Shown: piece by piece, positions 9,397 through 50,950 of the stretch
How the letters are laid out: every line of letters starts with the position of its first letter
Numbering within the stretch: the first letter of the stretch is position 1
Assembly: GCA_965227405.1 (NCBI GenBank)
Contig: OZ245758.1
Span: 2,387,153 to 2,451,152, forward strand
DNA: 64,000 bases
Origin: Polyangiales bacterium
Lineage (GTDB): Bacteria > Myxococcota_A > Polyangia > Polyangiales > Houyiibacteriaceae
Direction: 5' to 3'
Notes under the pieces: generated by a model
Seen by the model: the letters and a program-made list of their open reading frames with translations, nothing else
What the model was told of the DNA's origin: nothing
Database searches by the model: none
Translations under genes and position numbers: made by a program

Positions 9397-9401
9397 ATCG
9401 G

Positions 9402-10415: not shown

Positions 10416-10434
10416 CATTTGCTAGAAAGGGTTC

Positions 10435-11019
10435 GTGGCTGAGATTCGCGTCCCCCGACAAGTTCGTGCGCAGCGCACCCGAGAGAAGCTTCTCGGCGCC
10501 GCTCAGCGCGAGTTTTCGACCAAGGGGTATGCGAAGACGACTGCGCGTTCGGTCGCCACAGAAGCCGGCGTCGCGACGGGATCGTTCTACCAATACTTCG
10601 GCGACAAGGATGCGGTGCTGCGCGAGTTGGGCACGACGCGTCTCGCACGAATCTCGGAGTTCGCGCTCCAGTTTCTGAAGTCGGAAGCGGACCCGCGCGA
10701 GACCATGCGTCAGGTCGTCGTCGCGGTGATGGCATACCACCGCGAAGATCCAGGTCTACACGAAGTGCTCACCGAGCGACGTGCCTACGATCCGGAGCTC
10801 GACAAGCTGACCACCGATGGCGAGCGAGCGCTGATCGGTGCCGTGCAGTCGATGTTGGATCGCTGGAACCATCCTGGCGATCGCGAGGCTACAGCCTTCA
10901 TTCTTTTCAGCATGGTCGAGGGTGCGATTCACGCGCACTGCCTCGGTCACGCTCTGGTTTCGGACGAACGGTTCGTCGACACGTTGATCGACGCGCTCGT
11001 CCACATCGCACTTCCCTAA
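10435..11019 (+). CDS. TetR/AcrR family transcriptional regulator
   Basis: 194 aa. The N-terminal HTH region RTREKLLGAAQREFSTKGYAKTTARSVATEAGVATGSFYQYFGDKDAVL is a typical TetR signature. Confidence 0.85.
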   Translation: MAEIRVPRQVRAQRTREKLLGAAQREFSTKGYAKTTARSVATEAGVATGSFYQYFGDKDAVLRELGTTRLARISEFALQFLKSEADPRETMRQVVVAVMAYHREDPGLHEVLTERRAYDPELDKLTTDGERALIGAVQSMLDRWNHPGDREATAFILFSMVEGAIHAHCLGHALVSDERFVDTLIDALVHIALP

Positions 11020-11037
11020 AGCACTACCGAGGCACTC

Positions 11038-11388
11038 ATGTCCAAGTTCGAAGAGATGATCGAAAACTACAAGCGCGACCACCAGCACCCGGTCAACAAG
11101 GCCACGCACATGGTGGGCATTCCCATGATCGTGCTTTCGCTTCCGCTGATGTTCTTTGTGCCCCCCGTTGGGATCTTCATGTTTGTCGTCGGGTGGATCC
11201 TGCAGTTCATCGGTCACGCGTTTGAGGGCAAGCCGCCCAGCTTCTTGCGCGATCCCAAGTTCTTGATCGTCGGACCGACTTGGTACGCCAAGCGTCTGTG
11301 GTCGAAGTTGACCGGAACCCAGTTCGACGAGCCTGCACCCGCAACTTCGGCGGAATCCTCTGGGGTCGCGCAGCCCGCCCACGCCTGA
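11038..11388 (+). CDS. DUF962 (Mpo1-like) small membrane protein
   Basis: 116 aa. YKRDHQHPVNKATHMVGIPMIV followed by two TM segments, as in the DUF962 family. 18 nt after tetR. Confidence 0.7.
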   Translation: MSKFEEMIENYKRDHQHPVNKATHMVGIPMIVLSLPLMFFVPPVGIFMFVVGWILQFIGHAFEGKPPSFLRDPKFLIVGPTWYAKRLWSKLTGTQFDEPAPATSAESSGVAQPAHA

Positions 11389-11412
11389 CAAACCAGGCGA
11401 AACGCTTCGAGG

Positions 11413-11451
11413 CTCGGTAAACCTGTTTACCTGTCCCTAGGGTTTACCGAG
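11413..11451. promoter_or_regulatory. 11-bp inverted repeat with an internal third half-site (possible operator or stem-loop)
   Basis: CTCGGTAAACC (11413..11423) and GGTTTACCGAG (11441..11451), with GTTTACC again in between. Lies upstream of the Kazal-like lipoprotein gene. Confidence 0.3.
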
Positions 11452-11491
11452 TTCAGATGACGGATCCGGTGGTGCCTGCCACTCTTGTTGT

Positions 11492-12214
11492 ATGGATTGG
11501 GGATGGAAGGTGTGGGTTTGCGCCCTCAGTGTGGCGCTAGCCTGTAGTAGCAACGACCCGCCGACGATCGGAGACGACGCTGGCGAGTCCGACGTTGGAG
11601 TCGCCGACACAGGCGGTGCGGATGACGCGGGCGATGCGGATGACGCATCAACCGGTGACGACGGCGGCACCGACGATACGGGTCCCGGTGACGACGCCGG
11701 TCCGGATGACGATGCAGGCCCTGGTGCCGACGCAGGTCCGGACGATGACGCAGGTCCCGACGACGATGCTGGACCCAGCGGATGCTCGCCCGAACGTCCG
11801 TGCGCCGATGGTTCGTACTGCGTCTACGGAGGGTCGTGTGGTCGCGCGGGTCCGGGCACATGCATGCCGATCAGCGACTTCTGTACGGAGGATTGCCCTG
11901 GTGTGTGTGGCTGTGACGGCAGAACGTACTGCAACGCGTGCATCGCAGGTCGCAGTGGTGTGGATGTCGATCCAGACGGTGACTGCAGCGTGGTGCGCGG
12001 GTGTTCATCATCGGCAATGTGCGGACTTCGCGAATACTGCCTGCTTGAAAGCTGCGACGGCGACGGCACGTGCCGAATGCGTCCGGAATTTTGTCCGGAC
12101 ATCTTTGATCCTGTGTGCGCGTGCAACGGCATGACGTACGGCAATGGTTGTGAAGCCGCTGCTGCAGGCCAGACCGTCGCGCGTGACGGGGCCTGCGAGT
12201 CCGATCCGACGTGA
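11492..12214 (+). CDS. lipoprotein with acidic DDAGP repeats and two Kazal-type inhibitor-like domains
   Basis: Lipobox ALSVALACSS. CPGVCGCDGRTYCNACIAGRSG...GDC and CPDIFDPVCACNGMTYGNGCEAAAAGQTVARDGAC fit the Kazal Cys pattern. Confidence 0.65.
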   Translation: MDWGWKVWVCALSVALACSSNDPPTIGDDAGESDVGVADTGGADDAGDADDASTGDDGGTDDTGPGDDAGPDDDAGPGADAGPDDDAGPDDDAGPSGCSPERPCADGSYCVYGGSCGRAGPGTCMPISDFCTEDCPGVCGCDGRTYCNACIAGRSGVDVDPDGDCSVVRGCSSSAMCGLREYCLLESCDGDGTCRMRPEFCPDIFDPVCACNGMTYGNGCEAAAAGQTVARDGACESDPT

Positions 12215-13062
12215 ATGACTTCGGCGCGCTCGTCAGCGAGTTCGAGCGCGCCGGGCTCAAACATGCGACGCGCTCACGCGTACGTTGGTGGCTGAAACAA
12301 CGCGATGTTTCAGCCGCCTTCGCGGAGCTCTTCTTCAAACGCGTGTTGCGCTCAGGTGCGTGGGAACCCTTCCAAGGCGAAGAGCTTCCGGAAGAAACGC
12401 GTCGGGAGAGTGCGGGTTATCGCGAAGCTGCACGCTCGATTCGCACGATCACGTTGCGTCCACCGATACGCTCACTTCTGCTGACTGTTGGCTTCATATC
12501 GATCTTCCCGGCGTGGCTGCTCTTCATGGTCGAGTACGGTCGACTGGGAGACTGGTTCGCGTGGGTTCAGCTGTCGCTCGTATTGCCGCCCTTACTCTTT
12601 GGTGTACTTCGGCTCTTTCGGTTCATTCGACCAGACCGGATCGAGGTCCAATCCGAGCGTGCGAACTCCAAACGAGGCGACTTCGTACGTGCGGCGCTAC
12701 ATCGTGACGAGGTTGCATTCGTCGGCGTCGCACAACATTCCGATGCCGTCGTGCTTTCCGCTTTGTCGACGCGGGATCGGCGACTGGGGTTCTTGTTGGG
12801 CAGTTACCGAGACAATGCATGGACGGTGTTTGTGCAACGCCTCGACGGCACCGTCATCATTCTCGGAGATCACCTCCATGAGAAGACAGCGCGCGCAGCC
12901 GCACTTCGACTGGAACAAGCCCTCGAGCTGGAACAGCGCGCACGGGTTCAAGCGCGTGTTGAAACCGAGGAAGAAGAACTAGCTACGCAAGACGACGAGT
13001 CGGTCGCGGCCAGCGTGGAGGACCGTGCCGACAGCGACGTGAAGTCGACTGGAACGCGGTAG
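12211..13062 (+). CDS. hypothetical membrane protein
   Basis: 283 aa. GTGA overlap with the upstream gene. Two hydrophobic segments (LLLTVGFISIFPAWLLFMV; VQLSLVLPPLLFGVL) and an acidic tail. Confidence 0.45.
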   Translation: MNDFGALVSEFERAGLKHATRSRVRWWLKQRDVSAAFAELFFKRVLRSGAWEPFQGEELPEETRRESAGYREAARSIRTITLRPPIRSLLLTVGFISIFPAWLLFMVEYGRLGDWFAWVQLSLVLPPLLFGVLRLFRFIRPDRIEVQSERANSKRGDFVRAALHRDEVAFVGVAQHSDAVVLSALSTRDRRLGFLLGSYRDNAWTVFVQRLDGTVIILGDHLHEKTARAAALRLEQALELEQRARVQARVETEEEELATQDDESVAASVEDRADSDVKSTGTR

Positions 13063-22492: not shown

Positions 22493-22653
22493 AGCACATC
22501 TCAAAACTCCCGCCGGCCGCTACGCCGCCACAGCACGCAAACTGATGCCATCCCCTCACGCTCGAAAATACGACATATTTCCTCGGTTCGCGGACGCACC
22601 ATCTTACGCACTCTGACGGCGGATCGACGGGCGGGAGTTTTGAGATGTGCTCT
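22491..22653. mobile_element. MITE-like element, copy 1 (163 bp, perfect 24-bp terminal inverted repeats)
   Basis: AGAGCACATCTCAAAACTCCCGCC (22491..22514) is the exact reverse complement of 22630..22653. No ORF inside. A second copy, roughly 85 percent identical by eye, lies at 44009..44163. Confidence 0.6.
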
Positions 22654-35901: not shown

Positions 35902-37707
35902 TCAACTCCCCGACGGTCCCGGCGCGTCCGGTTCGCGTTCGAGGTAGCGGAAGATCGTGCGCGGATCCACCCCGAGATCGCGCGCCGTCTTGGTCCGGTT
36001 GCCGTTGTTCTGCTCCAACACCTCGAGGATGTAGCGGCGCGTGAACTCCTCGCGTGCTTGCGAGAGTGGGACGATCGCCGCGAGAGCTTCCGGAAAAAGA
36101 TCCATGTCCTCGGGACCGACCAACGTTTTGTCCGCGAGTACGACCGCCTTCTTGATGCGGTTTTCCAACTGCCGGATGTTGCCCGGCCAGCTGTACTTGC
36201 GCATCGCGGCCAACGCGCCCGGCGTAAAGCCCTTCACGCGCGCGCCGTACTCGCCCGAGTATCGTTTGAGGAAGTACTTGGCGATCACGATTACGTCGTC
36301 GCCGCGTTCGCGTAGCGCCGGCAGATGCAGGTTCACGACGTTGAGTCGGTAGAAAAGGTCTTCGCGGAAGTTCCCCTTCTTAATCTCCTCTTCGAGATCG
36401 CGGTTGGTCGCAGCCACGACGCGGATGTCCACCGCTTCGGTCTTGCTGTCGCCGACCTTCATGACGATCTTCTCTTGAAGTGCGCGCAGCAGTTTCACTT
36501 GCAGCGAGATCGGCATCTCACCGATCTCATCGAGGAAGAGCGTGCCCTTGTCGGCCTGCTGGAACTTGCCGTTACGCGTCGCCACGGCACCCGTGAACGC
36601 GCCACGCACGTGACCGAAGAGTTCCGACTCCATCAAGTTCTCAGGAATCGCGCCGCAGTTGACGACCACAAACGGGCCGTCGACACGAAGTGAACGACGA
36701 TGGATCGCGCGTGCGATCAACTCTTTACCGGTTCCGGTTTCGCCGGTGATCAACACGCTGATATCGGTGCCTGAAACCTTGTCGACCTTGTCGAACACAT
36801 CGAGCAAGGGCGGGCAGCTTCCGATGATTTCGCCAAAGCGCTTGGTGTCGAGCTCTTCGCTGAGCTGCGACTTCTCCAACGTGAGCTGGTCCAGGAGAAT
36901 CGCGTTTTGCAGAATCAACGACGCCTGGCCTGCGAAGATGGTCAACACGTCGAGCGACGATTGTTCGAAGAGGCTGACGACGTTGTCGTTTCCGACGTAG
37001 ATCAGTCCGAGTAGCTGACCCTGCGTCATCAAGGGTGCGCACATCACCGAGCAGAGCTTGAGGTTCATGACGCTCTCGCTCGACTTGAACTTGGTGTCGT
37101 GCAGCGCGTCGCTCACGATCAACGGCTTCTTGGTCTCAACGCACTGCTGAATGATCGAGTCACTGAGATGACGAACACCGTCAGGGATGTCGCGCTTCTC
37201 TAGGTTGCGCGCCGCAGCGATTTTCGCGTCGCCGTCCTGCAACAAGATCACAAAGCCCTTGGAGGCGTGCGTCACCTCGATCACGGCGTCGAGTAACGCG
37301 TCGATCTGATCGGGCACCGAACGGATCTCCAACAAGCGTTGGTTGAACTCACTTAGCTTCACCATGCCGGCGAGTTCAGCGCTGCGATCGTCGCCTTCGT
37401 CTGCTGCGGTGTCGACGATCTCGTCGTACACGCTGAACGTCAGCTCGATGTCGCCGAGTTGGATCCGATCGTTGTGATAGATCTTCGCGCGACGTTTCTT
37501 CTTCGAGTTGACGAGAATCGGTGACTTGTCGACGTCCGAAAGTTGGAAGTCGCGACCGTCGAACACGATCTGCGCGTGGTTCTCGTTGAGGCTCTTGTCG
37601 TCGATGCTGACGTCGTTGGCGCTGCCTCGACCGATCGTCGTGATCTTCTTGTAGATCGGGAAGACCTTCGGCCGGCCTTCTCCTGCGACCCATTTGAGAC
37701 TGGGCAT
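35902..37707 (-). CDS. sigma-54-dependent transcriptional activator, FHA-GAF-AAA+-HTH
   Basis: Start at MPSLKWVAGEG. FHA-like N-terminus (TIGRGSANDVSIDD...NHAQI), VLITGETGTGKE, GAFTGA and ESELFGH motifs, and a C-terminal Fis-type HTH (NRTKTARDLGVDPRTIFRYL). Confidence 0.85.
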   Translation of the reverse strand: MPSLKWVAGEGRPKVFPIYKKITTIGRGSANDVSIDDKSLNENHAQIVFDGRDFQLSDVDKSPILVNSKKKRRAKIYHNDRIQLGDIELTFSVYDEIVDTAADEGDDRSAELAGMVKLSEFNQRLLEIRSVPDQIDALLDAVIEVTHASKGFVILLQDGDAKIAAARNLEKRDIPDGVRHLSDSIIQQCVETKKPLIVSDALHDTKFKSSESVMNLKLCSVMCAPLMTQGQLLGLIYVGNDNVVSLFEQSSLDVLTIFAGQASLILQNAILLDQLTLEKSQLSEELDTKRFGEIIGSCPPLLDVFDKVDKVSGTDISVLITGETGTGKELIARAIHRRSLRVDGPFVVVNCGAIPENLMESELFGHVRGAFTGAVATRNGKFQQADKGTLFLDEIGEMPISLQVKLLRALQEKIVMKVGDSKTEAVDIRVVAATNRDLEEEIKKGNFREDLFYRLNVVNLHLPALRERGDDVIVIAKYFLKRYSGEYGARVKGFTPGALAAMRKYSWPGNIRQLENRIKKAVVLADKTLVGPEDMDLFPEALAAIVPLSQAREEFTRRYILEVLEQNNGNRTKTARDLGVDPRTIFRYLEREPDAPGPSGS

Positions 37708-37820
37708 ATTCCGGAGTCTACACGTGTTTTCGGGGAGTTTCGTACGTCGTGGAACGAAGTGTCGAAACACTGGTCCAAGGGGCTGCGCTGGGGCATGGTC
37801 CCAGCCACCTGGAGGTATCG

Positions 37821-39796: not shown

Positions 39797-41953
39797 GTGC
39801 CTGCGTCGTATGCCGTGGTACTTCCATACGTGCTTCGCCTCGCCATCGCCTGTGTTCTCGTTGCTTGTGGTGGCGGCGGACCTCGGCTTCTCGTTGACGT
39901 TCGTACCGACCTTGTTCCGGCGGTTGAGCTCGGTGAGGTAAGCGTCGATCTACTTGGCGACGGATTGGGCGATCCCGATCTCGGCCAGACGCGACTGGTG
40001 CTTCCCAGCGATGACTTCCTCGATGGGGTGCGCATCGCAGAGTTCGACGGGATCCGAAACGGAGAACGTCGACTGCGTGCCCAGCTGTTTGGTGTGGATG
40101 GGTCGTCGCTCGGTGATCGCGATGTCCAAGTCCAGGTTCGTGGCAACACTGCAGTGACGATCGTGTTCACACGCAGCTGCGTCGGAATCGAGTGCCCGGG
40201 CGACGGAAGTCCAACCGCTACGGAGTGCCTCAACGGAACATGCGTGCCGCCCGACTGCGTGGGTGGGATGTGTCCTGAAGCGTGTGTGGACGTGAGTGAT
40301 TGTCCGCGCGGTGCGGCCTGCTCGGAACCGATGTGCCTCGACGGCGCATGCTTCTTGGCGCCTACGGGTGAAGCCTGCGCGTCTGGGTTTGTGTGCATTC
40401 CGGAACGCGGTTGCGAGCCGACCGGTTCGATGGACGGCGGCACGGGCTGCATCGACGGCATGCCTTGCAACACGGGCAACGAGTGTGAACGGGGTCGAAC
40501 CGACTGCAGTTCAGGGTCGGCCGTATGTGTCGCCGATGGCGTGATGAATGCAGGCGTGAGCTGTCGCCCCGCCGACAATGAATGCGACATCGAAGAGTTC
40601 TGCGACGGTGTCGCGCCGACGTGTCCGACCGATGGCTTTGCGGATGTTGGAACGCCATGTACGGGCGGTTTCTGCAACGGCCCAGCGTGCGGAGCTTGTC
40701 AGCCCGGCGTCGCATGCGAGACCCCAAACGCGTGTGAGACGGGAACGATCGAATGTGCGGACGGTGTTCCGACCTGCGTTGCGTCGGGTGTGGTGGCTGC
40801 GGGAACCGAGTGTCGTGAGGCAGCAGGTCCATGCGACGTCGCAGAGTTGTGCGACGGAACCTCACCAGAGTGTCCCGGCGATGCGTTTCAGCCGATTGAC
40901 TTTGTGTGTCGCGCAGCTGCGGGTACCTGTGACCAAGTTGAAGTCTGCGATGGTGCGACGCCCGCATGCCCTGCCGACGCTTTCGATATGAGCACCGAGT
41001 GTCGACCGGCGGTCGGACCCTGCGACCTCGCGGAAGTGTGCTCAGGCGGTGCGTCGTGTCCGCCCGATGATCTGCGTGCAGCTGGCTCGACGTGTCGTGC
41101 CGCGGTGACCGAGTGCGATGCGGAAGAAACCTGCGACGGCGCAACTAGCGTCTGTCCTGACGACGAGTTTGAAAGCGCAGGCACCATGTGCTCGGGTGGA
41201 CGCGTCTGCGATGGTTCAGGCGCGTGTCTTGACCTCGGTTGCGGTGATCCGTGCAGCACCGGTGCGGCGTGCGAAATCGGAATCATCGATTGCAGCAGCG
41301 GTTCACCGGTATGCGTGCGCGATCGCTTGCGCGATATTGGCTTCGTCTGTCGACCGGTCGCAGGTGCGTGTGACGTGGCCGAAGAGTGCGACGGCGTGAG
41401 CGCAGCGTGCCCGGTCGATGGGTTCCTGAGCGGTGGCGAATGTCGTGCTGCGTCAGGAGCATGCGATCTGTCGGAGAGCTGCACTGGAACCAGTGCGTTC
41501 TGCCCAGCGGATCAAGTTCGTCCTGCGTCGTTTGAGTGTCGAGCAAGCGCGGGCATGTGCGATATCGCGGAGAACTGCGACGGAACCAACAAGGCGTGTC
41601 CCAGCGACGTGTTCGTTTCGAGTGCGACAGTGTGTCGAGGCAGCGAAGGTTTTTGTGATGTGATCGAGAACTGCCCTGGAAACGGTCCGGACTGTCCTGC
41701 CGATGGCTTTGTGAGTTCGGGAGTCGTGTGTCGTCCGGGAATTGGAATGTGCGATCGAACCGAGTCGTGCACTGGAACGGCAGCACGATGTCCGGCCGAC
41801 CAACTACAACCAGCGGGTTTTCCGTGTAGCGCCCGCGATGAGTTTCCATGTCACGTCAGCGAGTGCGATGGATCGGGCATGTGCGAGATCGTGGGCGACA
41901 ACTGTCCAGGAGGTCAGGCGTGTTGTGAACTCGGGTGCAATATCTGTCCGTGA
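39797..41953 (+). CDS. lipoprotein with about 15 Myxococcus-type cysteine-rich repeats
   Basis: Lipobox CVLVACGG. Repeating C(R)..(A)G.CD..E.CDG....CP.D.F units fill the C-terminal two-thirds. Confidence 0.75.
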   Translation: MPASYAVVLPYVLRLAIACVLVACGGGGPRLLVDVRTDLVPAVELGEVSVDLLGDGLGDPDLGQTRLVLPSDDFLDGVRIAEFDGIRNGERRLRAQLFGVDGSSLGDRDVQVQVRGNTAVTIVFTRSCVGIECPGDGSPTATECLNGTCVPPDCVGGMCPEACVDVSDCPRGAACSEPMCLDGACFLAPTGEACASGFVCIPERGCEPTGSMDGGTGCIDGMPCNTGNECERGRTDCSSGSAVCVADGVMNAGVSCRPADNECDIEEFCDGVAPTCPTDGFADVGTPCTGGFCNGPACGACQPGVACETPNACETGTIECADGVPTCVASGVVAAGTECREAAGPCDVAELCDGTSPECPGDAFQPIDFVCRAAAGTCDQVEVCDGATPACPADAFDMSTECRPAVGPCDLAEVCSGGASCPPDDLRAAGSTCRAAVTECDAEETCDGATSVCPDDEFESAGTMCSGGRVCDGSGACLDLGCGDPCSTGAACEIGIIDCSSGSPVCVRDRLRDIGFVCRPVAGACDVAEECDGVSAACPVDGFLSGGECRAASGACDLSESCTGTSAFCPADQVRPASFECRASAGMCDIAENCDGTNKACPSDVFVSSATVCRGSEGFCDVIENCPGNGPDCPADGFVSSGVVCRPGIGMCDRTESCTGTAARCPADQLQPAGFPCSARDEFPCHVSECDGSGMCEIVGDNCPGGQACCELGCNICP

Positions 41954-42643: not shown

Positions 42644-43013
42644 GGGTAAGAAAAAGCCGCCTGCCCCCAAAGAGGAAGTGCGCAACAACCCGTTTGCTGC
42701 GTTGGCACCGGCGAGCGCGCCACTACCCAAACAAGAGAAGAAGCCCGAGCCTGTTGCGTCCAGTGCTTCGAACCCGTTTGCGGGCAAGCTTGTGTTGCGT
42801 CGAGAGAAGAAGGGCCGTGGGGGCAAGACGGTAACGCGTCTTAGTGGCGTTGCGCCAAACGCCTTGGACGACACGGCCAAGCAAATGAAGAAGGGCTTGG
42901 GTTGTGGGTCGCTCGTGGAAGGCGACGACATCGTGTTGTTGGGTTCGTTGGTTGATCGCGCAGCGGACTGGCTTGAGAAGCAGGGTGCGAAGAAGGTGGT
43001 TCGCGGAAACTAA
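42642..43013 (+). CDS. yciH: SUI1/eIF1-family translation initiation factor-like protein
   Basis: Start at MGKKKPPAPKEE. KKGRGGKTVTRLSGV...LKKGLGCGSLVEGDDIVLLGS matches the YciH/SUI1 pattern. Confidence 0.8.
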   Translation: MGKKKPPAPKEEVRNNPFAALAPASAPLPKQEKKPEPVASSASNPFAGKLVLRREKKGRGGKTVTRLSGVAPNALDDTAKQMKKGLGCGSLVEGDDIVLLGSLVDRAADWLEKQGAKKVVRGN

Positions 43014-43070
43014 ACTCGGAAAAAGATCGATACGCGGGGTTGACCCGTCGAAGACGCCGACGCATTGTAG

Positions 43071-43439
<369 letters not shown>

Positions 43440-43479
43440 GCAAGAATCTCCTTTCAACAAAAGGGAAAACAAAGATTAC

Positions 43480-43851
43480 GGTTGTTGCCGCGCCCTTACG
43501 CGAGAAGCGTACACACGGTAAAAAACAAACCTCGCAAGTTTGCACTGTCGGTTCGAATCCGGCTCGGTCCACCGCGTCCTAGGACGCTGCAAACAGCTCG
43601 CGCTACAAAGCGAGAGCACTTCCCAAAGGTCGAACGAGCGCGAAGCGCTCGACGATCGGAGGGGGAACAAGCTCGGCGCTGAAAAGCGAGAGCACCTCCA
43701 AAGTTCGAACGAGCGCGCAAGCGCTCGACGATCGGAGGGGGGGACCCAGAGGGCTCTGCCCGATGGGGGGGGAGGACTTCAAGAAAGTCCTCCCAGAAAT
43801 CTGGGCCGAATAAACACATTCGTCGCTTTTACGACTTGTGCGGCAACAACC
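43480..43851 (+). ncRNA. helix-closed structured element (module 1) with a tRNA T-arm and two tandem ~75-nt hairpin-rich units
   Basis: GGTTGTTGCCGC (43480..43491) is the exact complement of GCGGCAACAACC (43840..43851). Inside are TACACAC (43510), the T-arm GTCGG-TTCGAAT-CCGGC (43547..43563) followed by TCGGTCC-ACC, a tandem repeat at 43595..43669 / 43670..43743, and a 9-bp hairpin GGAGGACTT/AAGTCCTCC. Confidence 0.35.
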
Positions 43852-43859
43852 TTATTTAC

Positions 43860-44004
43860 GCGCCTGTAGTTCAATTGGATAGAACGCCGTCGTCAAGACA
43901 GCTTCAGCAACTTACGCGGCTCCACTCGCGACTACTCTGCAAGCCTACACACGCATCGGGCTCATAACCCGGAGGTTACAGGTTCGAATCCTGTCGGGCG
44001 CTCC
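43860..44004 (+). tRNA. tRNA-Met(CAT)-like gene interrupted by a 69-nt insert in the 5' strand of the anticodon stem (module 2)
   Basis: GCGCCTG-TA-GTTC-AATTGGATA-GAAC-G-CC [insert 43889..43957] GGG-CTCATAA-CCCGG-AGGTT-ACAGG-TTCGAAT-CCTGT-CGGGCGC-T. The acceptor pairs over 7 bp (one T-G). The D, anticodon and T arms are canonical once the insert is removed. Confidence 0.45.
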
Positions 44005-44008
44005 TCTC

Positions 44009-44163
44009 GCACATCTCAAAACTATCGCCGGCCGCTACGCGGCCACAGCACACGACCTGCTGCCATCCTCTCGCCTCGGTAATGAGTACATTGCCTCGGT
44101 TCGCGGACGCACCATCTCGTGCACTCTGACGGCGTATCGACGGGCGCTAGTTTTGAGATGTGC
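44009..44163. mobile_element. MITE-like element, copy 2 (155 bp), inserted between tRNA-like modules 2 and 3
   Basis: GCACATCTCAAAACTATCGCC (44009..44029) pairs with 44143..44163 as a 21-bp TIR with one mismatch. Its interior is collinear with copy 1 at 22491..22653. Confidence 0.6.
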
Positions 44164-44179
44164 TTCGAATCGTGACCAC

Positions 44180-44290
44180 TTTTGAAGCGTACATACTTGG
44201 AGGTTCGAATCCTTCACTCCCCACCAGAGCTCTAAGCTCAATCACATTGGGGAGTTGGGCAAATGGCAAAGCCAACGCGTCGTAAAACGC
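44180..44290 (+). ncRNA. circularly permuted tRNA-like module (module 3)
   Basis: Order is T-arm GGAGG-TTCGAAT-CCTTC (44199..44215), ACTCCCC-ACCA (44216..44226), a 22-nt linker with hairpin GAGCT-CTA-AGCTC, then GGGGAGT (44249..44255, exact complement of ACTCCCC), TG, and D-arm GGCA-AATGGCA-AGCC. The closing helix is GCGT (44187..44190) with ACGC (44275..44278), extendable to TTTT/AAAA. Confidence 0.4.
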
Positions 44291-44336
44291 GTCTATCAAC
44301 GACCGCTTCACCAACTTACACGATTCAACAATTCAT

Positions 44337-44459
44337 CCCTCGCGATCACTGATCGGCTTACACACTGGCTAAACTGGGATAGGCAACAGACTCTTAATCT
44401 GTGATTTGTTGGTTCGAATCCAACGTGAACATCACCAGCCGATCGAACTTGCGTGAGGG
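44337..44459 (+). ncRNA. 123-nt YrlA-like tRNA mimic (module 4, anticodon-loop CTCTTAA)
   Basis: The leader pairs with the trailer: CCCTCGCG (44337..44344) with TGCGTGAGGG (44450..44459), and ATCGGC (44352..44357) with GCCGAT (44438..44443). The core has TACACAC, a D-arm-like segment with GG, ACAGA-CTCTTAA-TCTGT, and GTTGG-TTCGAAT-CCAAC. Confidence 0.5.
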
Positions 44460-44469
44460 TGCCAAATTT

Positions 44470-44576
44470 CGCGCGCGTCCTAACAACTGGGACTTACACA
44501 CTGGCCTTGAAAGCCAACGGATTGAAACTCCGTCCCCTGCAAAGGGAACACAACGTCCCGGAAACTCACGCGCGCT
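44470..44576 (+). ncRNA. 107-nt Y-RNA-like module (module 4.5) with D- and anticodon-arm look-alikes but no T-arm
   Basis: GCGCGCG (44471..44477) pairs with CGCGCGC (44569..44575), and GGGAC (44489..44493) with GTCCC (44555..44559). The core has TACACAC, GGC-CTTGAAA-GCC, ACGGA-TTGAAAC-TCCGT, and a CCCT-GCAA-AGGG hairpin. Confidence 0.4.
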
Positions 44577-44588
44577 ATTCAAATCACC

Positions 44589-44711
44589 CCCTCGCGATCA
44601 CCTGCGCGGCTTACACACTCGCCTAACGGTAAGGCAACAGACTTCAACTCTGTCGATGTTGGTTCGATTCCAACGTGAAACCAAACACAGCCGTTCGAAC
44701 TTGCGTGAGGG
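44589..44711 (+). ncRNA. 123-nt YrlA-like tRNA mimic (module 5, anticodon-loop CTTCAAC)
   Basis: Paralog of module 4. CCCTCGCG (44589..44596) pairs with TGCGTGAGGG (44702..44711). The core has TACACAC, TC, a perfect D-arm GCCT-AACGGTA-AGGC, A, ACAGA-CTTCAAC-TCTGT, CGAT, and GTTGG-TTCGATT-CCAAC. Confidence 0.5.
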
Positions 44712-44760
44712 AAGCTTCTGGTCGTCTTTCAGATGACCTTCGTCTCGGTCCCCGACTTCA

Positions 44761-44824
44761 TCGACGTACACACAATCGGATCCTGGGGGCGAAAGCCCTC
44801 TGCATCATTGCGTAGAACCGTCGA
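44761..44824 (+). ncRNA. small helix-closed module (module 6) with TACACAC and a GAAA-tetraloop hairpin
   Basis: TCGACG (44761..44766) pairs with CGTCGA (44819..44824). TACACAC is at 44767. Contains the hairpin GGGGC-GAAA-GCCCT. Confidence 0.3.
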
Positions 44825-44886
44825 CGTAACTTGACCGAGCGTTGATCTGCAGCGTTCGTCTAATGCCAGGATGCCGGCCCTGTTAG

Positions 44887-46524
<1,638 letters not shown>

Positions 46525-47538: not shown

Positions 47539-48396
47539 ATGACGCATGTTCTGGACCTGATCGATCGGCTCGCCCGCGCAGAGGACGAGCTTCGTTCGCG
47601 GCGTTTTCTTTCGCCGTGCGTTCCGGGCGTGCGTCTGCGGGTGCGCATCGACGGCTTGGTGCACGCGTTTGCGCCGAACCCACCGCGCTACGCAGGTTGG
47701 GGGTTGTTCCAGCCGATCGACTCGAAGCGCGCACAGCTGGTGAAGCGTCCAGACGACGCGCTGGTGAATCGCTACCTCGAGCACCTTCCGTCCGAACGCT
47801 TCTACGCGGTCAAGCAGGCCAAGGGGAAGGCGTGGTGGGCGATGCCGCTGTCCGCAGAAGCTTTCCGTGCGCGTCACGGTCGCGATGGTCCGATCGTGGT
47901 GCACCTGTGCAAGAACGTCGCGTCGTTCGAGACGATCGTCGTGCGTTGGGACGGTGCGAGCTTCTGGTTCGACCAGGTCGATCGTTTTGCCGATCCGGTT
48001 CTGCCGGAGAAGCTGCGCGTTGGTTTCACCGAAGGCAAGGAGCTCGAAGAGCTTCAGCTTGCGGGCATCACTCCGGAGCTCGTCGACGCGTACGTGTGGG
48101 CGTCGCTTTGGGATGTCGAGCAGCGCAAGAAGAGCCTTGAGGGTTCGCTCGCGCACGCGCTCAAGATCGGTGGCGGCAAGCTCGTCACCTTTCGCGACAC
48201 CGACACGCACCTCGTGGTGGAGTGGCGGGATCGCTTGGGTCGTCGACACAGTTCGGCGATTCAGAAGAACGCACTGCAGGTGCAAAGCGCCGGTGCGGTG
48301 TGTCTCCAGGGTCGCGATGCGGACTTCGATCTCACGTCGCTCGTCGGTGTGATGGACGAAGCCCCGCAATACCTCGTCGACATGCTCGACGATTAG
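47539..48396 (+). CDS. hypothetical protein (unknown function), operonic with rsr
   Basis: Start ATG 47539 (MTHVLDLIDRLARAEDEL), 4 nt after the previous stop. 285 aa, no motif recognised. Confidence 0.6.
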   Translation: MTHVLDLIDRLARAEDELRSRRFLSPCVPGVRLRVRIDGLVHAFAPNPPRYAGWGLFQPIDSKRAQLVKRPDDALVNRYLEHLPSERFYAVKQAKGKAWWAMPLSAEAFRARHGRDGPIVVHLCKNVASFETIVVRWDGASFWFDQVDRFADPVLPEKLRVGFTEGKELEELQLAGITPELVDAYVWASLWDVEQRKKSLEGSLAHALKIGGGKLVTFRDTDTHLVVEWRDRLGRRHSSAIQKNALQVQSAGAVCLQGRDADFDLTSLVGVMDEAPQYLVDMLDD

Positions 48397-48531
48397 CTCA
48401 CCCAAATCCGTACTCCTGCGTGTTTGTTGGGAATGCGCAGAGTGCGGGGGTTTGGGCTCGTTTTGGAGGGAGTTCGGGTCAGATCTGACCCTGTCCCCAA
48501 AATCCTCCCCCGATTGTGCGGAGAGAGTCTG

Positions 48532-49164
48532 ATGTCGTTTTTGTTTCACGAAAAGTTGTCTCGCTCGGGTGCTGTTATGGCGAAGCTTCGTGCTGCGCAT
48601 GTGACGGTGTGTGGGGCGGGTGCGCTTGGAAGCCACGTCGTCGAAGGGCTTGCTCGCTCGGGCGTGGGTGGGCTTCGCGTGATTGATCGCGACAAGGTCG
48701 AAGAGCGCAATCTCTCGACTCAGCCGTGGACGCGTGCAGACATCGGGCAGCCGAAGGCGCGCCTGCTAGCGCACTCTGTCTTTCGCGCGGTTGGCGTGCA
48801 GGTCGACGCACGTGCGAAGGAACTCAACAGCGACAACGCACGCGCGTTGGTTCGCGGTAGCTCCGTGGTTGTCGACGCGTTCGACAACAGCGTGGGTCGT
48901 GCAGCGGTCAAGGCTGCAGCCGCCAAGCTCGGGCTGCCGTGTGTGCACGCCGGGATGGCAGGTGAGTACTCCGAGGTCGTGTGGGATCCGCACTACGTGG
49001 TTCCGAGTGCGACCAACGACGACGTTTGCGACTACCCGCTAGCGCGCAACTTGGCGATCTTGACGTCCGCGATCGCGGCGGAAACGGTGATCCGTTTCCT
49101 CGCTACCGGAGTGATGGAGAACCGCGCCCTGACGTTCGGCGATCTAAAGCTGACGACCCACTGA
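48532..49164 (+). CDS. small ThiF/MoeB/E1-like adenylyltransferase
   Basis: Start ATG 48532 (MSFLFHEKLSRSG). Rossmann Gly loop VTVCGAGALGSHVVEGLARSGVG, then RVIDRDKVEERNLSTQ (the DxDxV..sNL.RQ pattern of E1-like enzymes). Only 210 aa, so it has no rhodanese or extra C-terminal domain. Confidence 0.75.
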   Translation: MSFLFHEKLSRSGAVMAKLRAAHVTVCGAGALGSHVVEGLARSGVGGLRVIDRDKVEERNLSTQPWTRADIGQPKARLLAHSVFRAVGVQVDARAKELNSDNARALVRGSSVVVDAFDNSVGRAAVKAAAAKLGLPCVHAGMAGEYSEVVWDPHYVVPSATNDDVCDYPLARNLAILTSAIAAETVIRFLATGVMENRALTFGDLKLTTH

Positions 49165-49305: not shown

Positions 49306-50115
49306 ATGGCACAGGCACCCCGCTTCGAACCGCTTGGACAAGGCGCGTTCACCAAAACCCACGCTGAGTTCACCGACATCGACACGTTTGACTGGGTGGC
49401 ACTCGAGGCGTCCGCGAAGACGTTCGACGCGCACACGCGTGAACGCGGTCGTCGTGCGTTTGTGCTGCGCGCACTGGACGAACAACGCAGCGTTGTGGCG
49501 TTTAGTGAGCTGCTCACAGAACTCTGTCTGTCCGGAGCACCCATTGAAGTCATTGGTTCGCTGACCCGCGTTGTTCGCGACGAAGCGTTGCACGTCGACA
49601 TGTGCGACCGCGTAGTCAAAGCGCTCGGCGGGTGGGACGAGAAGTCCCCGCAGCCAACCTGGGTACGCAGCAATAAGAAGCTCCCGCTCAAACTTCGCGT
49701 GCTCCAAACGGTTCTGGGTTCGCTGTGCGTCGGGGAGACGATCAGCGTGCACATGATCAAGGGGGTTCGCGAGCATGCCAGCGAACCGGTGATCCACGCG
49801 TTGCTGACGCGACTGCTTGCCGACGAGTCGTACCACTCGCGCATTGGCTGGTGGTGGTTGCGCGAGATCGAAATGAGCGACGAAGAGCGCACGTTTGCGA
49901 AGCGTTACGTCGCGAAGATGTTGCCGCACATCATCAAGACGATGCGGCCGAAGCTCAACGGCAAGAAGCACACGTATTCGCCGTTTGGGTCCATGAGTGC
50001 AGAAGAACGGCTCGATGCGTTCGACGCAGCGATGCACAAGACGATCTTGCCGGGGTTTGATGCCGCTGGACTCGAGGCTTCAGCGATTTGGAATGAGCTT
50101 GGGAGGGCTGCTTAG
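49306..50115 (+). CDS. ferritin-like (di-iron carboxylate) superfamily protein
   Basis: 269 aa, helical. Two ExxH motifs (RDEALH, ADESYH) spaced as in ferritin-like four-helix bundles. Confidence 0.5.
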   Translation: MAQAPRFEPLGQGAFTKTHAEFTDIDTFDWVALEASAKTFDAHTRERGRRAFVLRALDEQRSVVAFSELLTELCLSGAPIEVIGSLTRVVRDEALHVDMCDRVVKALGGWDEKSPQPTWVRSNKKLPLKLRVLQTVLGSLCVGETISVHMIKGVREHASEPVIHALLTRLLADESYHSRIGWWWLREIEMSDEERTFAKRYVAKMLPHIIKTMRPKLNGKKHTYSPFGSMSAEERLDAFDAAMHKTILPGFDAAGLEASAIWNELGRAA

Positions 50116-50116
50116 G

Positions 50117-50950
50117 ATGAGATTGGACCGGAAAAACAACGCGCTTGAGACGATCTTGATGATCGCGCGTTCGGCGACTCGCACGATCACGATGTCGTCG
50201 GTCGGGACTGCGCTTGCTGTGTTGCTGAGTGTTGGAGGCTGTTCTCAGTCGCATACAAACCTGCCGGACTTGGACGGCGACGGCTACACGCAGGCGACGG
50301 ACTGCAATGACGAGGATCCATCGATTCATCCCGGTGCTCTGGATCCGGAGTGTCCGGATGGAATCGACCAGGATTGCGACGGACACGATGGTGACCCATT
50401 CATCGCCTGCAACTTCTTCCCGCTCGACCGGGACGGAGACGGCTACGAGGAAGGCCACGATTGCAACGACTCCGACCCCACGGTGTATCCCGGTGCACCT
50501 GAAGATTGCTGCACGACAGTCGACAACAACTGCGATGGGATCATCGGGCCTACGGAAGACATCATCTGCAACTGCTTCTTTGGGGAGGATGCGGACGGAG
50601 ACGGCTTCTTCACATTCTCAGACTTCGGCGCGCCTGCTGACTGTGACGACAGCGATCCCGCAATCCACCCTGAGGCCGAAGAGATCTGCGGCAACGATAT
50701 CGACGAGAACTGCGATGGCGTCGCGGAACCATGCGTTGTGGTCAATCCACTGCCTGATGCGGACGGGGACGGCTACACCGCCGATGTCGATTGTGACGAC
50801 TCGAATCCGTACACAAACCCCGGCGCCACCGAAGAGTGCTGGGACGGAATCGACAACAACTGCAACGGGCTCGTCGATGAAGAGCCTCCAGAAGGCTGCG
50901 TGATTCTCAACGGAATGCGCGACGTCGAACTCGACGCAGAACACGCCTAA
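50117..50950 (+). CDS. lipoprotein with repeated putative metal-binding (MopE-like) motifs
   Basis: ATG 50117 follows GGGAGGG. Lipobox LLSVGGC. Six or more units of DGDGY....DC(N/D)D.DP..(H/Y)PGA.E.C...D.(D/N)CDG. Confidence 0.65.
   Translation: MRLDRKNNALETILMIARSATRTITMSSVGTALAVLLSVGGCSQSHTNLPDLDGDGYTQATDCNDEDPSIHPGALDPECPDGIDQDCDGHDGDPFIACNFFPLDRDGDGYEEGHDCNDSDPTVYPGAPEDCCTTVDNNCDGIIGPTEDIICNCFFGEDADGDGFFTFSDFGAPADCDDSDPAIHPEAEEICGNDIDENCDGVAEPCVVVNPLPDADGDGYTADVDCDDSNPYTNPGATEECWDGIDNNCNGLVDEEPPEGCVILNGMRDVELDAEHA

What the first reader, a model, noticed from the sequence alone, without database searches (positions are those of the whole stretch)
44180..44290. Circularly permuted tRNA-like module: T-arm and 3' acceptor strand (with ACCA) lie upstream of the 5' acceptor strand and D-arm
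The order on the + strand starts with the T-arm GGAGG-TTCGAAT-CCTTC. ACTCCCC-ACCA follows, then a 22-nt linker with its own small hairpin. Next come GGGGAGT (an exact 7-bp complement of ACTCCCC), TG, and the D-arm GGCA-AATGGCA-AGCC. The outer ends pair (GCGT 44187..44190 with ACGC 44275..44278, extendable through TC/GA and TTTT/AAAA with bulges) where an anticodon stem would be. This is the topology of a tRNA opened at the anticodon and closed at the acceptor. Permuted tRNA genes are described in a few algae and archaea, processed via circular intermediates. I am not aware of any bacterial case. Alternatively this is a Y-RNA effector domain with no free CCA end.
Basis: seen in the sequence. 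Interest (0 to 1): 0.75.

Follow-up and report, generated by a model that had tools for sequence, protein, structure and literature searches.

The report
tRNA-mimic module of Y-like RNA array
The permuted tRNA-like element is real: it is one unit in a row of tRNA-mimicking RNA modules encoded next to a divergent Ro60-like protein, a widespread bacterial RNA-protein system I could not find described in this form.

Summary
On the + strand the order is T arm (44199-44215), 3' acceptor strand ACTCCCC plus ACCA, a 22-nt linker, 5' acceptor strand GGGGAGT, U8/G9, then the D arm.

A local anticodon-like hairpin (44275-44292) follows the D arm. The module is closed further out by a two-helix stalk: P2 44184-89/44304-09 and P1 44167-74/44319-26.

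The same stalk closes at least five perfect modules in the 43486-44840 gap. It has a conserved internal loop and a UACAYAC junction.

The gap lies between a 66-aa Gly-ended small protein gene and a 485-aa protein. The model of that protein matches only Ro60/Rsr structures over its full length.

In 80 related loci, T arm, closed 7-bp acceptor and D arm recur upstream of this protein with strong covariation. An RNA-only motif search leads back to the same gene.

It is therefore a YrlA-like Y-RNA tRNA mimic, not a tRNA gene matured through circular intermediates. It fails YrlA's sequence motif and matches no Rfam family. Its partner protein has no Pfam TROVE hit. Modules come in three tRNA permutations, and some relatives carry an rRNA GTPase-centre mimic.

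Verdict: new variant of a known kind.

The parts
44167..44174 (+). Module M3 (the finding): stalk helix P1, 5' strand GAATCGTG
   Evidence: Perfect 8-bp complement of 44319-44326. The MFE fold predicts it. L001 has the identical pair.
44175..44183 (+). M3 stalk internal loop, 5' side (ACCACUUUU)
   Evidence: It occupies the position of the family's conserved CCCUAAC loop.
44184..44189 (+). M3 stalk helix P2, 5' strand GAAGCG
   Evidence: Pairs with CGCTTC 44304-09.
44190..44198 (+). M3 junction motif UACAUAC plus UU
   Evidence: TACAYAC occurs 330 times on the + strand and 61 times on the - strand in 80 related loci, clustered upstream of the Ro-like gene.
44199..44215 (+). M3 T arm GGAGG-UUCGAAU-CCUUC
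   Evidence: Read directly. In the family alignment the T helix is 99.7% paired, and 4 of its 5 pairs show changes on both sides.
44216..44226 (+). M3 acceptor 3' strand ACUCCCC followed by ACCA
   Evidence: 7/7 pairs with 44249-55. ACC is kept in L001 (ACCC) and L002 (ACCG), but only 6 of 62 family loops begin with ACC.
44227..44248 (+). M3 acceptor-closing loop with the mini-hairpin GAGCU-CUA-AGCUC (44227-39)
   Evidence: Seen. The loop is not conserved: 7 nt in L001, 39 nt in L002, and 3-9 nt in most relatives.
44249..44257 (+). M3 acceptor 5' strand GGGGAGU plus U8 G9
   Evidence: Covariation of the acceptor helix: all 7 pairs change on both sides and 85.5% of cells are paired, against 36-53% in the slid controls (whole structure).
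44258..44273 (+). M3 D arm GGCA-AAUGGCAA-AGCC (A14, G18G19 and A21 present)
   Evidence: Read. GGCAAATGGNAAAGCC is conserved in L001 and L002.
44275..44292 (+). M3 anticodon-arm-like local hairpin ACGCG-UCGUAAAA-CGCGU
   Evidence: Predicted by MFE folding. Orthologs keep a hairpin with other sequences: L001 ACATC-CTGAAAA-GGTGT and L002 GGCCG-TTCG-CGGCC.
44304..44309 (+). M3 P2 3' strand CGCUUC
44310..44318 (+). M3 stalk internal loop, 3' side ACCAACUUA (family motif AACUUR)
   Evidence: The family consensus is AACUUG immediately before the P1 3' strand.
44319..44326 (+). M3 P1 3' strand CACGAUUC
43486..43845 (+). Module M1: stalk, UACACAC, T arm (43547), and acceptor TCGGTCC/GGGCCGA closed by a 232-nt insert that contains a 76-nt tandem repeat. 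It has no D arm.
43860..43998 (+). Module M2: normal-order tRNA-like (CAU loop) with an open 7-bp acceptor. The stalk is inserted as a capped hairpin between the D arm and the anticodon arm.
   Evidence: Rfam tRNA scores 28.9 bits on the 3' part only. The acceptor partner lies 118 nt upstream of the T arm. The same layout occurs in L001, L002, L003 and L016.
44005..44166 (+). Palindromic dispersed repeat inserted between M2 and M3; not part of the RNA family
   Evidence: An 85% identical copy lies at 22494-22651. It is absent at the same place in L001. It appears as inverted repeat I1.
44338..44458 (+). Module M4: the stalk sits at the acceptor end, with D, anticodon (CUU) and T arms. ARAGORN calls it tRNA-Lys, but the acceptor has only 3-4 pairs.
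   Evidence: z -3.66
44471..44575 (+). Module M5: stalk plus three small hairpins (D-like, anticodon-like, GNRA-capped)
   Evidence: z -5.66
44590..44710 (+). Module M6: a 252-nt tandem duplicate of M4 with a UCA loop. ARAGORN calls it tRNA-SeC.
44743..44840 (+). Module M7: stalk (11 of 12 pairs) with a small non-tRNA head
43239..43439 (+). 66-aa protein ending ...RPEAVYG*, a candidate ubiquitin-like partner of the E1-like enzyme
   Evidence: Translated. It is conserved upstream of the RNA array in L001, L002, L006, L016, L081 and phage locus L082, and in most of the motif-derived loci. The fold was not tested.
45067..46524 (+). 485-aa divergent Ro60-like protein (helical repeat ring plus vWA domain)
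   Evidence: The AF2 model's top 13 Foldseek hits are all Ro60/Rsr, with E from 3e-10 to 3.5e-8 over about 500 columns. phmmer gives E 1.2e-4 to the phage phiLo Ro60. Pfam reports only a weak VWA_2 match.
47539..48396 (+). 285-aa conserved core protein of unknown family
   Evidence: Conserved in 33 loci, in L081 and in the phage locus. The AF2 model has pLDDT 84. Foldseek gives only weak partial OB-fold-like matches.
48424..49164 (+). ThiF/E1-like adenylating enzyme
   Evidence: PF00899 at 4.5e-31. PADLOC E1-E2 models reach 1e-18. Conserved in 28 loci, in L081 and in L082.

Best explanation
Positions 44167-44326 encode one module of a tandem array of structured non-coding RNAs (43486-44840). 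The array lies between a small Gly-ended protein gene and a divergent Ro60-like gene.

Each module has two parts:
- A conserved stalk: helix P1, an internal loop (about CCCUAAC on the 5' side and AACUUG on the 3' side), helix P2, and a UACAYAC junction.
- A variable head.

In the module under study the head is a complete tRNA cloverleaf, circularly permuted. The acceptor stem is closed by a loop, and the RNA opens in the variable region, where the stalk emerges.

Inferred by analogy with Y RNAs:
- The stalk docks the Ro60-like ring.
- The tRNA-shaped head (T/D elbow plus a 7-bp acceptor stacked on the T arm) is presented to proteins that recognise tRNA shape.
- The array would then work as a scaffold, decoy or damage sensor for the translation machinery, rather than as a decoding tRNA.

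A sub-hypothesis applies to this lineage only. The window module has a 7-bp acceptor, an encoded ACCA and a long loop, so it could be cut by RNase P and trimmed to a CCA end, as shown for Mycobacterium smegmatis YrlA.

Shown here: the structure, its conservation and covariation, and its genetic linkage to the Ro60-like gene. Inferred: protein binding, processing and biological role.
For: Structure:
- The MFE fold of 44160-44335 gives P1, P2, the T arm, the acceptor and the hairpin, with z = -4.65.
- All helices are perfectly paired in the window, L001 and L002. The acceptor and the anticodon-like hairpin have different sequences in each.

Family-wide covariation:
- A model blind to acceptor pairing gives 164 hits, all on the + strand.
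- 61 of 76 short-loop hits have 7/7 acceptor pairs, and there are about 40 distinct acceptor stems.
- All 7 acceptor pairs change on both sides. The covariation score is 0.517 against 0.170 in shuffles, reached by 0 of 500 shuffles.

Stalk:
- 176 of 301 junction motifs have 12/12 P1+P2 pairs at fixed geometry, against 10 of 301 in a reversed-strand control. There are 41 distinct P1 sequences.
- Perfect stalks occur 188 times on the + strand and once on the - strand in 80 loci. In the whole 64-kb window they occur only in this gap.

Linkage:
- 72 of 80 loci that carry the protein have at least one perfect stalk upstream.
- An RNA-only motif scan returned 120 or more stretches. Of 119 examined, 92 hold the Ro-like gene on the same strand 98-2700 nt downstream.

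Protein: the only full-length Foldseek matches are Ro60/Rsr structures.

Precedent: YrlA Y RNAs combine a Ro60-binding stem with a permuted tRNA-like domain. The M. smegmatis YrlA is cut by RNase P and receives CCA (PMC4201824; bioRxiv 10.1101/312249).

Context:
- A relative (L081) has a 33-tRNA array, Tpt1/KptA, NADAR, RNase T-like and HNH genes in the same gene string.
- Some relatives have a module whose head copies the sarcin-ricin loop and the 23S GTPase-associated centre.
Against: - No expression, end-mapping or binding data exist here.
- The protein has no Pfam TROVE match. A profile of the family finds no PDB sequence at E <= 0.01. The Ro60 assignment therefore rests on a medium-confidence model (pLDDT 68) and one marginal sequence hit.
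- The YrlA motif GNCGAAN0-1G is not present as such.
- No Rfam family other than tRNA matches.
- Another operon protein, for example the 285-aa protein with OB-like parts, could be the stalk binder instead.
- ACCA is not a family feature: only 6 of 62 loops begin with ACC.
Confidence: 0.75

Rival explanations
1. A true circularly permuted tRNA gene. The transcript ends would be joined into a circle, the acceptor loop opened by RNase P and a 3' nuclease, and a functional decoding tRNA released, as in Cyanidioschyzon merolae.
For: - Un-permuted in silico, the module is a full cloverleaf. The L001 ortholog has a canonical CUGAAAA loop.
- The acceptor has 7 bp and is followed by ACCA.
Against: - The window's anticodon-like loop has 8 nt (or 6), and L002 has a tetraloop.
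- The junction is a 14-bp stalk with 9-nt internal loops, not a bulge-helix-bulge.
- The stalk is the most conserved part and is shared with non-tRNA heads.
- Most family members close the acceptor with 3-9 nt and no CCA.
- Bacteria are not known to have the splicing endonuclease (stated in bioRxiv 10.1101/312249).
Confidence: 0.03
2. Chance juxtaposition or decay products. On this reading the 3' end of one tRNA gene or pseudogene is followed by the 5' start of the next. This is the false positive that Chen et al. warned about for YrlA searches.
For: - The gap is full of tRNA-like pieces.
- Tandem tRNAs do score with the T-to-D model: the L077 array, for example, gives hits.
Against: - In real tandem tRNAs the flanking acceptor strands form only 1-5 of 7 pairs. 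In the short-loop modules 61 of 76 form 7/7.
- The two strands here have no other partner within 4 kb.
- Compensatory changes are seen in the orthologs.
Confidence: 0.01
3. A cis-acting leader of the downstream operon. The modules would be mRNA structures that bind an operon protein or a translation factor to control expression of the Ro-like, 285-aa and E1-like genes, rather than stable trans-acting RNAs.
For: - The array is on the same strand, between two genes of one conserved gene string.
- A GC-rich hairpin followed by U residues (44997-45026) sits just before the Ro-like start codon.
- A 13-nt stretch at 44897-44909 is perfectly antisense to the T arm of M4.
Against: - Up to seven modules with different heads is excessive for an attenuator.
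- Known Y RNAs are likewise co-transcribed with rsr and processed out (PMC4201824), so location does not discriminate.
- In relatives, modules also lie downstream of the Ro-like gene.
Confidence: 0.08
4. A two-piece tRNA mimic with a free CCA end. This is a variant of the best explanation, not exclusive of it. RNase P would cut 5' of G44249 and the loop would be trimmed back to ACCA. The two fragments would stay held together by the acceptor, P2 and P1 helices.
For: - The module has a 7-bp acceptor coaxial with a 5-bp T stem, an encoded ACCA and a 26-nt loop.
- ACC is retained in L001 and L002 although the stem and the loop diverged.
- M. smegmatis YrlA behaves this way (PMC4201824).
- An RNase T-family gene is in the L081 gene string.
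Against: - Most family members have 3-9-nt loops without CCA.
- The three ACC cases are close relatives, so shared ancestry may explain them.
- There are no experimental data.
Confidence: 0.25

Closest known systems
YrlA-type bacterial Y RNAs (Chen et al. 2014, PMC4201824; Wang et al. 2018, bioRxiv 10.1101/312249)
   Same: - Encoded just upstream of, and on the same strand as, a Ro60-fold protein gene.
- The 5' and 3' ends pair into a stem.
- The effector domain runs (V hairpin)-T arm-closed acceptor stem-loop-D arm, with the tRNA tertiary-contact nucleotides. In other words it resembles a circularly permuted tRNA.
- Several such RNAs can occur per locus.
   Different: - The partner protein is a separate, very conserved family. 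It shows 60-64% identity across phyla, has no Pfam TROVE hit, and is annotated only as vWA.
- The stalk carries other motifs (CUUCGCG-CCCUAAC...UACAYAC / AACUUG-CGCGAAG) instead of GNCGAAN0-1G.
- There is no Rfam match.
- Arrays hold up to 6-7 modules.
- The same stalk is attached to tRNA-like heads at three different points: the acceptor end, position 26/27, and the variable region.
- In relatives the stalk also carries a sarcin-ricin-loop and GTPase-centre mimic.
- The core gene set includes a Gly-ended 66-aa protein, an E1-like enzyme and a 285-aa protein.
Mycobacterium smegmatis YrlA (PMC4201824)
   Same: [quoted passage not shown] The window module likewise has 7 bp, plus ACCA and a 22-nt linker.
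   Different: [quoted passage not shown] In the window the CCA is already encoded.
Circularly permuted tRNA genes of Cyanidioschyzon merolae and some archaea (PMC3978253)
   Same: The 3' half (T arm and 3' acceptor strand) is encoded upstream of the 5' half (5' acceptor strand and D arm), joined by a linker.
   Different: - Those genes yield real tRNAs through bulge-helix-bulge processing and a circular intermediate.
- Here there is no such motif and no conserved anticodon loop.
- The would-be discarded stalk is the conserved part.
Two-piece tmRNA from permuted ssrA genes (own knowledge; ARAGORN searches for them)
   Same: A bacterial precedent for a circularly permuted tRNA-like domain whose halves are held together by pairing.
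   Different: ARAGORN found no tmRNA. There is no tag reading frame, and the gene context is different.
[quoted passage not shown]
   Same: Relatives of this locus sit directly downstream of L-arrays: 33 tRNAs in L081 and 22 in L077. They have HNH and RNA-processing genes nearby.
   Different: That paper does not mention the Ro60-like protein or the stalked tRNA-like modules. The window itself has no L-array.

Membership tests
YrlA-type Y RNA | Encoded within about 4 kb of, and on the same strand as, a Ro60 ortholog | tested here: met
   The module ends 741 nt upstream of the start of the 485-aa gene, on the same strand. The only full-length structural matches of that protein are Ro60/Rsr.
YrlA-type Y RNA | The partner protein is a recognisable TROVE-domain Ro60 | tested here: not met
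   Pfam at E <= 10 reports only VWA_2. The family profile finds no PDB sequence at E <= 0.01. One marginal phmmer hit (E 1.2e-4) matches the phage phiLo Ro60.
YrlA-type Y RNA | Effector domain ordered T arm, closed acceptor stem-loop, D arm, with tRNA-type conserved nucleotides | tested here: met
   Read directly. Covariation is shown. ARAGORN draws a cloverleaf after un-permutation.
YrlA-type Y RNA | The 5' and 3' ends pair to form the protein-binding stem | tested here: met
   P1 and P2 appear in the MFE fold. Family-wide, 176 of 301 junctions have a perfect stalk, against 10 of 301 in the control.
YrlA-type Y RNA | GNCGAAN0-1G motif near the 5' end | tested here: not met
   The window has UUCGAAUCG, which contains CGAA but lacks the flanking G residues. 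The other modules and the family consensus read CUUCGCGCCCUAAC.
YrlA-type Y RNA | Match to a curated covariance model | tested here: inconclusive
   No Rfam family other than tRNA matched at E <= 10 in 43000-46000, nor at gathering score in 15 related loci. I ran no positive control to confirm that a YrlA model is in the library. The models of Chen et al. were not available.
YrlA-type Y RNA | Bound by Ro60 in vivo; modified by TruB and DusA | not testable with these tools
   Needs immunoprecipitation and modification mapping.
Circularly permuted tRNA gene (functional tRNA) | The 3' half is encoded upstream of the 5' half, with complementary acceptor strands | tested here: met
Circularly permuted tRNA gene (functional tRNA) | Bulge-helix-bulge motif where the transcript ends are joined | tested here: not met
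   The ends form P1 (8 bp), a 9/9-nt internal loop and P2 (6 bp). There is no 3-nt bulge, 4-bp helix, 3-nt bulge arrangement.
Circularly permuted tRNA gene (functional tRNA) | Conserved 7-nt anticodon loop that specifies an amino acid | tested here: not met
   The window loop is UCGUAAAA, L001 has CUGAAAA, and L002 has the tetraloop UUCG.
Circularly permuted tRNA gene (functional tRNA) | Circular RNA intermediate and a mature aminoacylated tRNA | not testable with these tools
   Needs RNase R RNA-seq and acylation assays.
Canonical tRNA gene | Detected by ARAGORN or the Rfam tRNA model over positions 1-71 | tested here: not met
   Neither tool makes a call at 44167-44326. The neighbouring calls at 44359 and 44611 match only model positions 5-66.
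Two-piece (permuted) tmRNA | ARAGORN tmRNA call with a tag peptide | tested here: not met
   ARAGORN reports no tmRNA in the window.

The most novel reading that the evidence does not exclude
The array may be a set of mimics of translation-machinery RNAs displayed on one common stalk. In the window these are tRNAs in three circular permutations. In relatives there is also a copy of the sarcin-ricin loop plus the 23S GTPase-associated centre.

The stalk would serve a Ro60-like ring protein that works together with a Gly-ended small protein, an E1-like enzyme and an OB-like protein. Such a system would sense, absorb or repair attacks on tRNA and rRNA, or capture translation factors, during translational stress or phage conflict.

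It would be an undescribed and widespread RNA-protein system. It is found in cyanobacteria, Myxococcota, Acidobacteriota, Armatimonadota and a 595-kb phage, and is often joined to long tRNA arrays.
Probability: 0.35. Interest if true: 0.85.

Novelty: new variant of a known kind. Interest (0 to 1): 0.65.

Why it matters
- Bacterial Y RNAs that mimic tRNA are known, but what their tRNA-like domains do is still open. This family offers many natural variants of one design: the same stalk with the tRNA body attached at three different points, and in relatives an rRNA GTPase-centre copy. That argues the heads are presented as look-alikes of translation RNAs, and it makes the idea testable.
- The family extends the Ro60 family to a highly conserved branch that domain databases miss.
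- It links Ro60-type RNPs genetically to a ubiquitin-like/E1 pair and to long tRNA arrays.
- There is also a practical point. The module heads are mis-called as tRNA genes, including a spurious UCA 'selenocysteine/suppressor' tRNA and CUA 'pyrrolysine' tRNAs. This can mislead genetic-code and tRNA-set analyses.

Tried and rejected
The MFE fold prefers the local hairpin plus P2/P1, and L001 has no equivalent pairing.
- Rfam search for YrlA, Y RNA or any other family found only tRNA.
- The promoter and terminator scan of 43100-45200 was uninformative.
- PADLOC gave no defence-system match except generic E1 models for the ThiF gene.
- NCBIfam and Pfam gave nothing for the Ro-like, 327-aa, 285-aa and 66-aa proteins.
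- PDB sequence searches for the 327-aa and 285-aa proteins, and for the profiles A1 and A4, found no hits.
- Foldseek on the 285-aa model gave only weak OB-fold-like partial matches, so no function is assigned.
- The long hairpin 44005-44166 was first considered a Ro-binding stem. It is rejected because it is a dispersed repeat with a second copy at 22494-22651 and is absent in L001.
- My first D-arm regex test was badly designed and is discarded (second part).
- A search for a sarcin-ricin or GTPase-centre module in the window found none.
- Literature: ten searches found no description of this RNA family or of the Ro-like/E1 gene set. Three sources could not be read: Burroughs & Aravind 2016 (NAR 44:8525), Sim et al. 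2020 (Annu Rev Microbiol), and the supplement of Chen et al. 2014. Prior mention there cannot be excluded.
Full report
**Setting**

The finding lies in a 1.6-kb stretch with no convincing ORFs (43440-45066). Its G+C content is 0.54-0.56, against about 0.61 for the rest of the window. The window comes from a Myxococcota-like genome: the closest loci are Myxococcota MAGs, and a protein of the window sits on a 9.07-Mb contig.

**The observation**

- the T arm at 44199-44215;
- ACTCCCC at 44216-22, then ACCA;
- a 22-nt linker with a small hairpin;
- GGGGAGT at 44249-55;
- U8 and G9;
- a D arm at 44258-73 with A14, G18G19 and A21.

ARAGORN and the Rfam tRNA model do not call this stretch. They do call two neighbours, at 44359 and 44611, but only over model positions 5-66, because the acceptor stems there have 3-4 pairs.

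**The real closure**

Folding 44160-44335 gives the following (z = -4.65; 0 of 200 shuffles fold as well):
- a local hairpin directly after the D arm (44275-92);
- helix P2, GAAGCG 44184-89 with CGCTTC 44304-09;
- helix P1, GAATCGTG 44167-74 with CACGATTC 44319-26.

The module is therefore a complete cloverleaf opened in the variable region. When I re-joined it in normal tRNA order, ARAGORN at lowered threshold drew a cloverleaf for the window and for its two closest orthologs. The L001 version resembles tRNA-Phe(GAA). The window has an 8-nt loop and L002 a tetraloop.

**One stalk, many heads**

The same closing device recurs through the gap. Its layout is P1, an internal loop, P2, then the junction UACAYAC on the 5' side, and AACUUR immediately before the P1 3' strand.

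A script that asks for 7 + 5 perfect pairs at fixed geometry finds it five times in the 64-kb window, all on the + strand and all in this gap:
- M1, 43486-43845;
- M3, the finding;
- M4, 44338-44458;
- M5, 44471-44575;
- M6, 44590-44710.

M7 (44743-44840) has 11 of 12 pairs. M4 to M7 fold as stalk plus head, with z between -2.1 and -5.7.

The heads differ:
- M4 and M6 are tRNA-like bodies with the stalk at the acceptor end.
- M2 (43860-43998) is a normal-order tRNA-like with an open 7-bp acceptor, and the stalk is inserted as a capped hairpin between the D arm and the anticodon arm.
- M3 has the stalk in the variable region.
- M1 has only a T arm and an acceptor.
- M5 and M7 are not tRNA-like.

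The long hairpin at 44005-44166 between M2 and M3 is a dispersed palindromic repeat. A second copy lies at 22494-22651, and it is absent at this place in L001.

**The neighbouring protein**

The ORF at 45067-46524 belongs to a very conserved family of about 477 aa, with 60-64% identity between Myxococcota, Cyanobacteria, Armatimonadota and Acidobacteriota. It is annotated only as a vWA-domain protein.
- Pfam sees only a weak VWA_2 match.
- A single-sequence PDB search gives a marginal hit (E 1.2e-4) to the Ro60 of Thermus phage phiLo.
- A family profile finds nothing.
- An AlphaFold2 model (pLDDT 68) has as its 13 best Foldseek matches only Ro60/Rsr structures. These align over about 500 columns with E from 3e-10 to 3.5e-8, well ahead of isolated vWA domains.

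I read it as a divergent Ro60-like protein. The caveat is that this rests mainly on a model of medium confidence.

**Related loci**

I fetched 80 genome loci through the protein.
- Nearly all carry T-loop motifs and odd 'tRNA' calls only on the coding strand, within about 2.5 kb upstream.
- TACAYAC occurs 330 times on that strand and 61 times on the other.
- Perfect stalks occur 188 times against once, and 72 of 80 loci have at least one.
- Against a control with reversed 3' strands, perfect stalks number 176 of 301 versus 10 of 301. There are 41 distinct P1 sequences.

The consensus stalk is CUUCGCG-CCCUAAC-N4-AAAGCU-UACAYAC ... AACAGCUUU-NUU-AACUUG-CGCGAAG.

**Covariation of the permuted head**

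To avoid selecting for acceptor pairing, I built a covariance model in which only the T arm is paired. I then searched all loci with it.
- It gave 164 hits, all on the + strand.
- Among 76 hits with an acceptor loop of 12 nt or less, 61 have 7/7 pairs.
- About 40 different acceptor sequences occur.
- True tandem tRNAs picked up by the same model (for example the L077 array) give 1-5 pairs.

The formal count supports this:
- all seven acceptor pairs change on both sides;
- 85.5% of acceptor-helix cells are paired, against 36-53% for the whole structure when the partner is slid;
- the whole-structure covariation score is 0.517 against 0.170 in shuffles, reached by 0 of 500 shuffles.

In the three closest orthologs the T and D arms are almost identical. 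The acceptor reads ACTCCCC/GGGGAGT, TCGCTCC/GGAGCGA and CCGCCCG/CGGGCGG.

**Reverse check**

I scanned all species genomes with an RNA-only pattern taken from the stalk's 5' side.
- Of 119 examined, 92 hold the Ro-like gene on the same strand, 98-2700 nt downstream.
- Most of the others hold the small upstream gene and are cut short.

**Gene set**

Four proteins recur with the RNAs in Myxococcota, in a cyanobacterium (L081) and in a 595-kb uncultured phage (L082):
- a 66-aa protein ending RPEAVYG;
- the Ro-like protein;
- a 285-aa protein, whose confident model gives only weak OB-fold-like partial matches;
- a ThiF/E1-like enzyme.

In L081 the same string also carries a 33-tRNA array, HNH, Tpt1/KptA, NADAR and RNase T-family genes. 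L077 has 22 tRNAs upstream. Long tRNA arrays in cyanobacteria are induced by translational stress and have RNA-processing neighbours (PMC8421152). That paper does not mention these RNAs or this protein.

**An unexpected relative**

In many cyanobacterial and some other loci, one more stalk module lies downstream of the Ro-like gene, for example at L042 6782-6986. Its head contains two rRNA look-alikes:
- AGUACGAGAGGAA, the sarcin-ricin loop sequence;
- a 56-nt stretch that Rfam aligns to LSU rRNA at the GTPase-associated centre (49.5 bits, E 2e-13).

The loop 11-mer occurs in 44 of 201 fetched loci. The window has no such module. This suggests that the heads in this family are look-alikes of translation RNAs in general, not only of tRNA.

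**Interpretation**

The closest known kind is the YrlA class of bacterial Y RNAs. These have a stem that binds Ro60 and a domain that folds like tRNA. They are described as resembling circularly permuted tRNAs with closed acceptor stems. One member is cut by RNase P and given CCA (PMC4201824; bioRxiv 10.1101/312249).

The present module works like that class in topology and context. It does not pass all of its defining tests:
- no GNCGAAN0-1G motif;
- no curated model match;
- the partner has no Pfam TROVE match.

Binding of the stalk by the Ro-like protein, processing at the acceptor loop, and a role in tRNA/rRNA damage responses are inferences.

The permuted-tRNA-gene reading is very unlikely for the reasons listed under the rival explanations.

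**Limits**

There are no expression data. Three key sources could not be read, so prior description of this variant cannot be excluded.

Noticed in passing
L042 6782-6986, and 44 of 201 fetched loci: A stalk module downstream of the Ro-like gene has a head that copies the 23S sarcin-ricin loop (AGUACGAGAGGAA) and the GTPase-associated centre. Rfam aligns the latter to LSU rRNA positions 1179-1234 at 49.5 bits, E 2e-13. The window has no such module.
   Followed up: partly
window 44005-44166 and 22494-22651: A roughly 160-nt palindromic repeat is present twice in the window at 85% identity. One copy is inserted between two RNA modules. It looks like a small dispersed or mobile repeat.
   Followed up: partly
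window 43575-43802: The acceptor loop of module M1 carries a 232-nt insert. It contains a 76-nt tandem repeat (43607-43665 and 43683-43741, 93% identical) and G-rich runs. An ORF on the - strand (43496-43819) overlaps it and is probably spurious.
   Followed up: no
window 44897-44909 versus 44415-44427 (and 44665-44677): A 13-nt stretch between the last module and the Ro-like gene is perfectly antisense to the 3' half of the T arm of M4, and 92% antisense to that of M6. It could be a regulatory pairing or chance.
   Followed up: no
window 44997-45026: A GC-rich hairpin (GAAAACGCGTCTC / GAGGCGCGTTTTC) lies about 40 nt before the Ro-like start codon. L001 has a comparable hairpin at 3966-3986. 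It may be a terminator or attenuator that separates the RNA array from the gene.
   Followed up: no
window 44359-44433 and 44611-44682; many related loci: ARAGORN calls module heads as tRNA genes with odd anticodons. Examples are Lys-CTT and 'SeC' TCA in the window, and 'Pyl' CTA, Asn-ATT and Phe-AAA in relatives. These are stalked mimics with 3-4-bp acceptors and would pollute tRNA and genetic-code annotation.
   Followed up: partly
L081 4427-7860; L077 611-3741; L011 and L050 5' parts: Long arrays of canonical tRNA genes (33, 22 and 6 or more) lie directly upstream of the small-protein / RNA-module / Ro-like gene string in some relatives.
   Followed up: partly
L082 (uncultured phage LR756511.1, 595 kb), 4206-12547: A huge phage encodes the same four core proteins, with the Ro-like protein 46.5% identical. 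It has T-arm-containing RNAs between them, but the UACAYAC junction motif is absent on that strand.
   Followed up: partly
L041 2742-2824 and L044 2808-2890: These permuted modules have a roughly 30-nt insertion in place of most of the T loop. The acceptor and D arm are kept.
   Followed up: no
window 39797-41953, 49997-50950, 35902-37770: Neighbouring genes appear unrelated to the finding. They are a 718-aa protein with eight disintegrin repeats, a protein with four MopE-type metal-binding repeats, and an FHA-GAF sigma-54 activator on the - strand.
   Followed up: no
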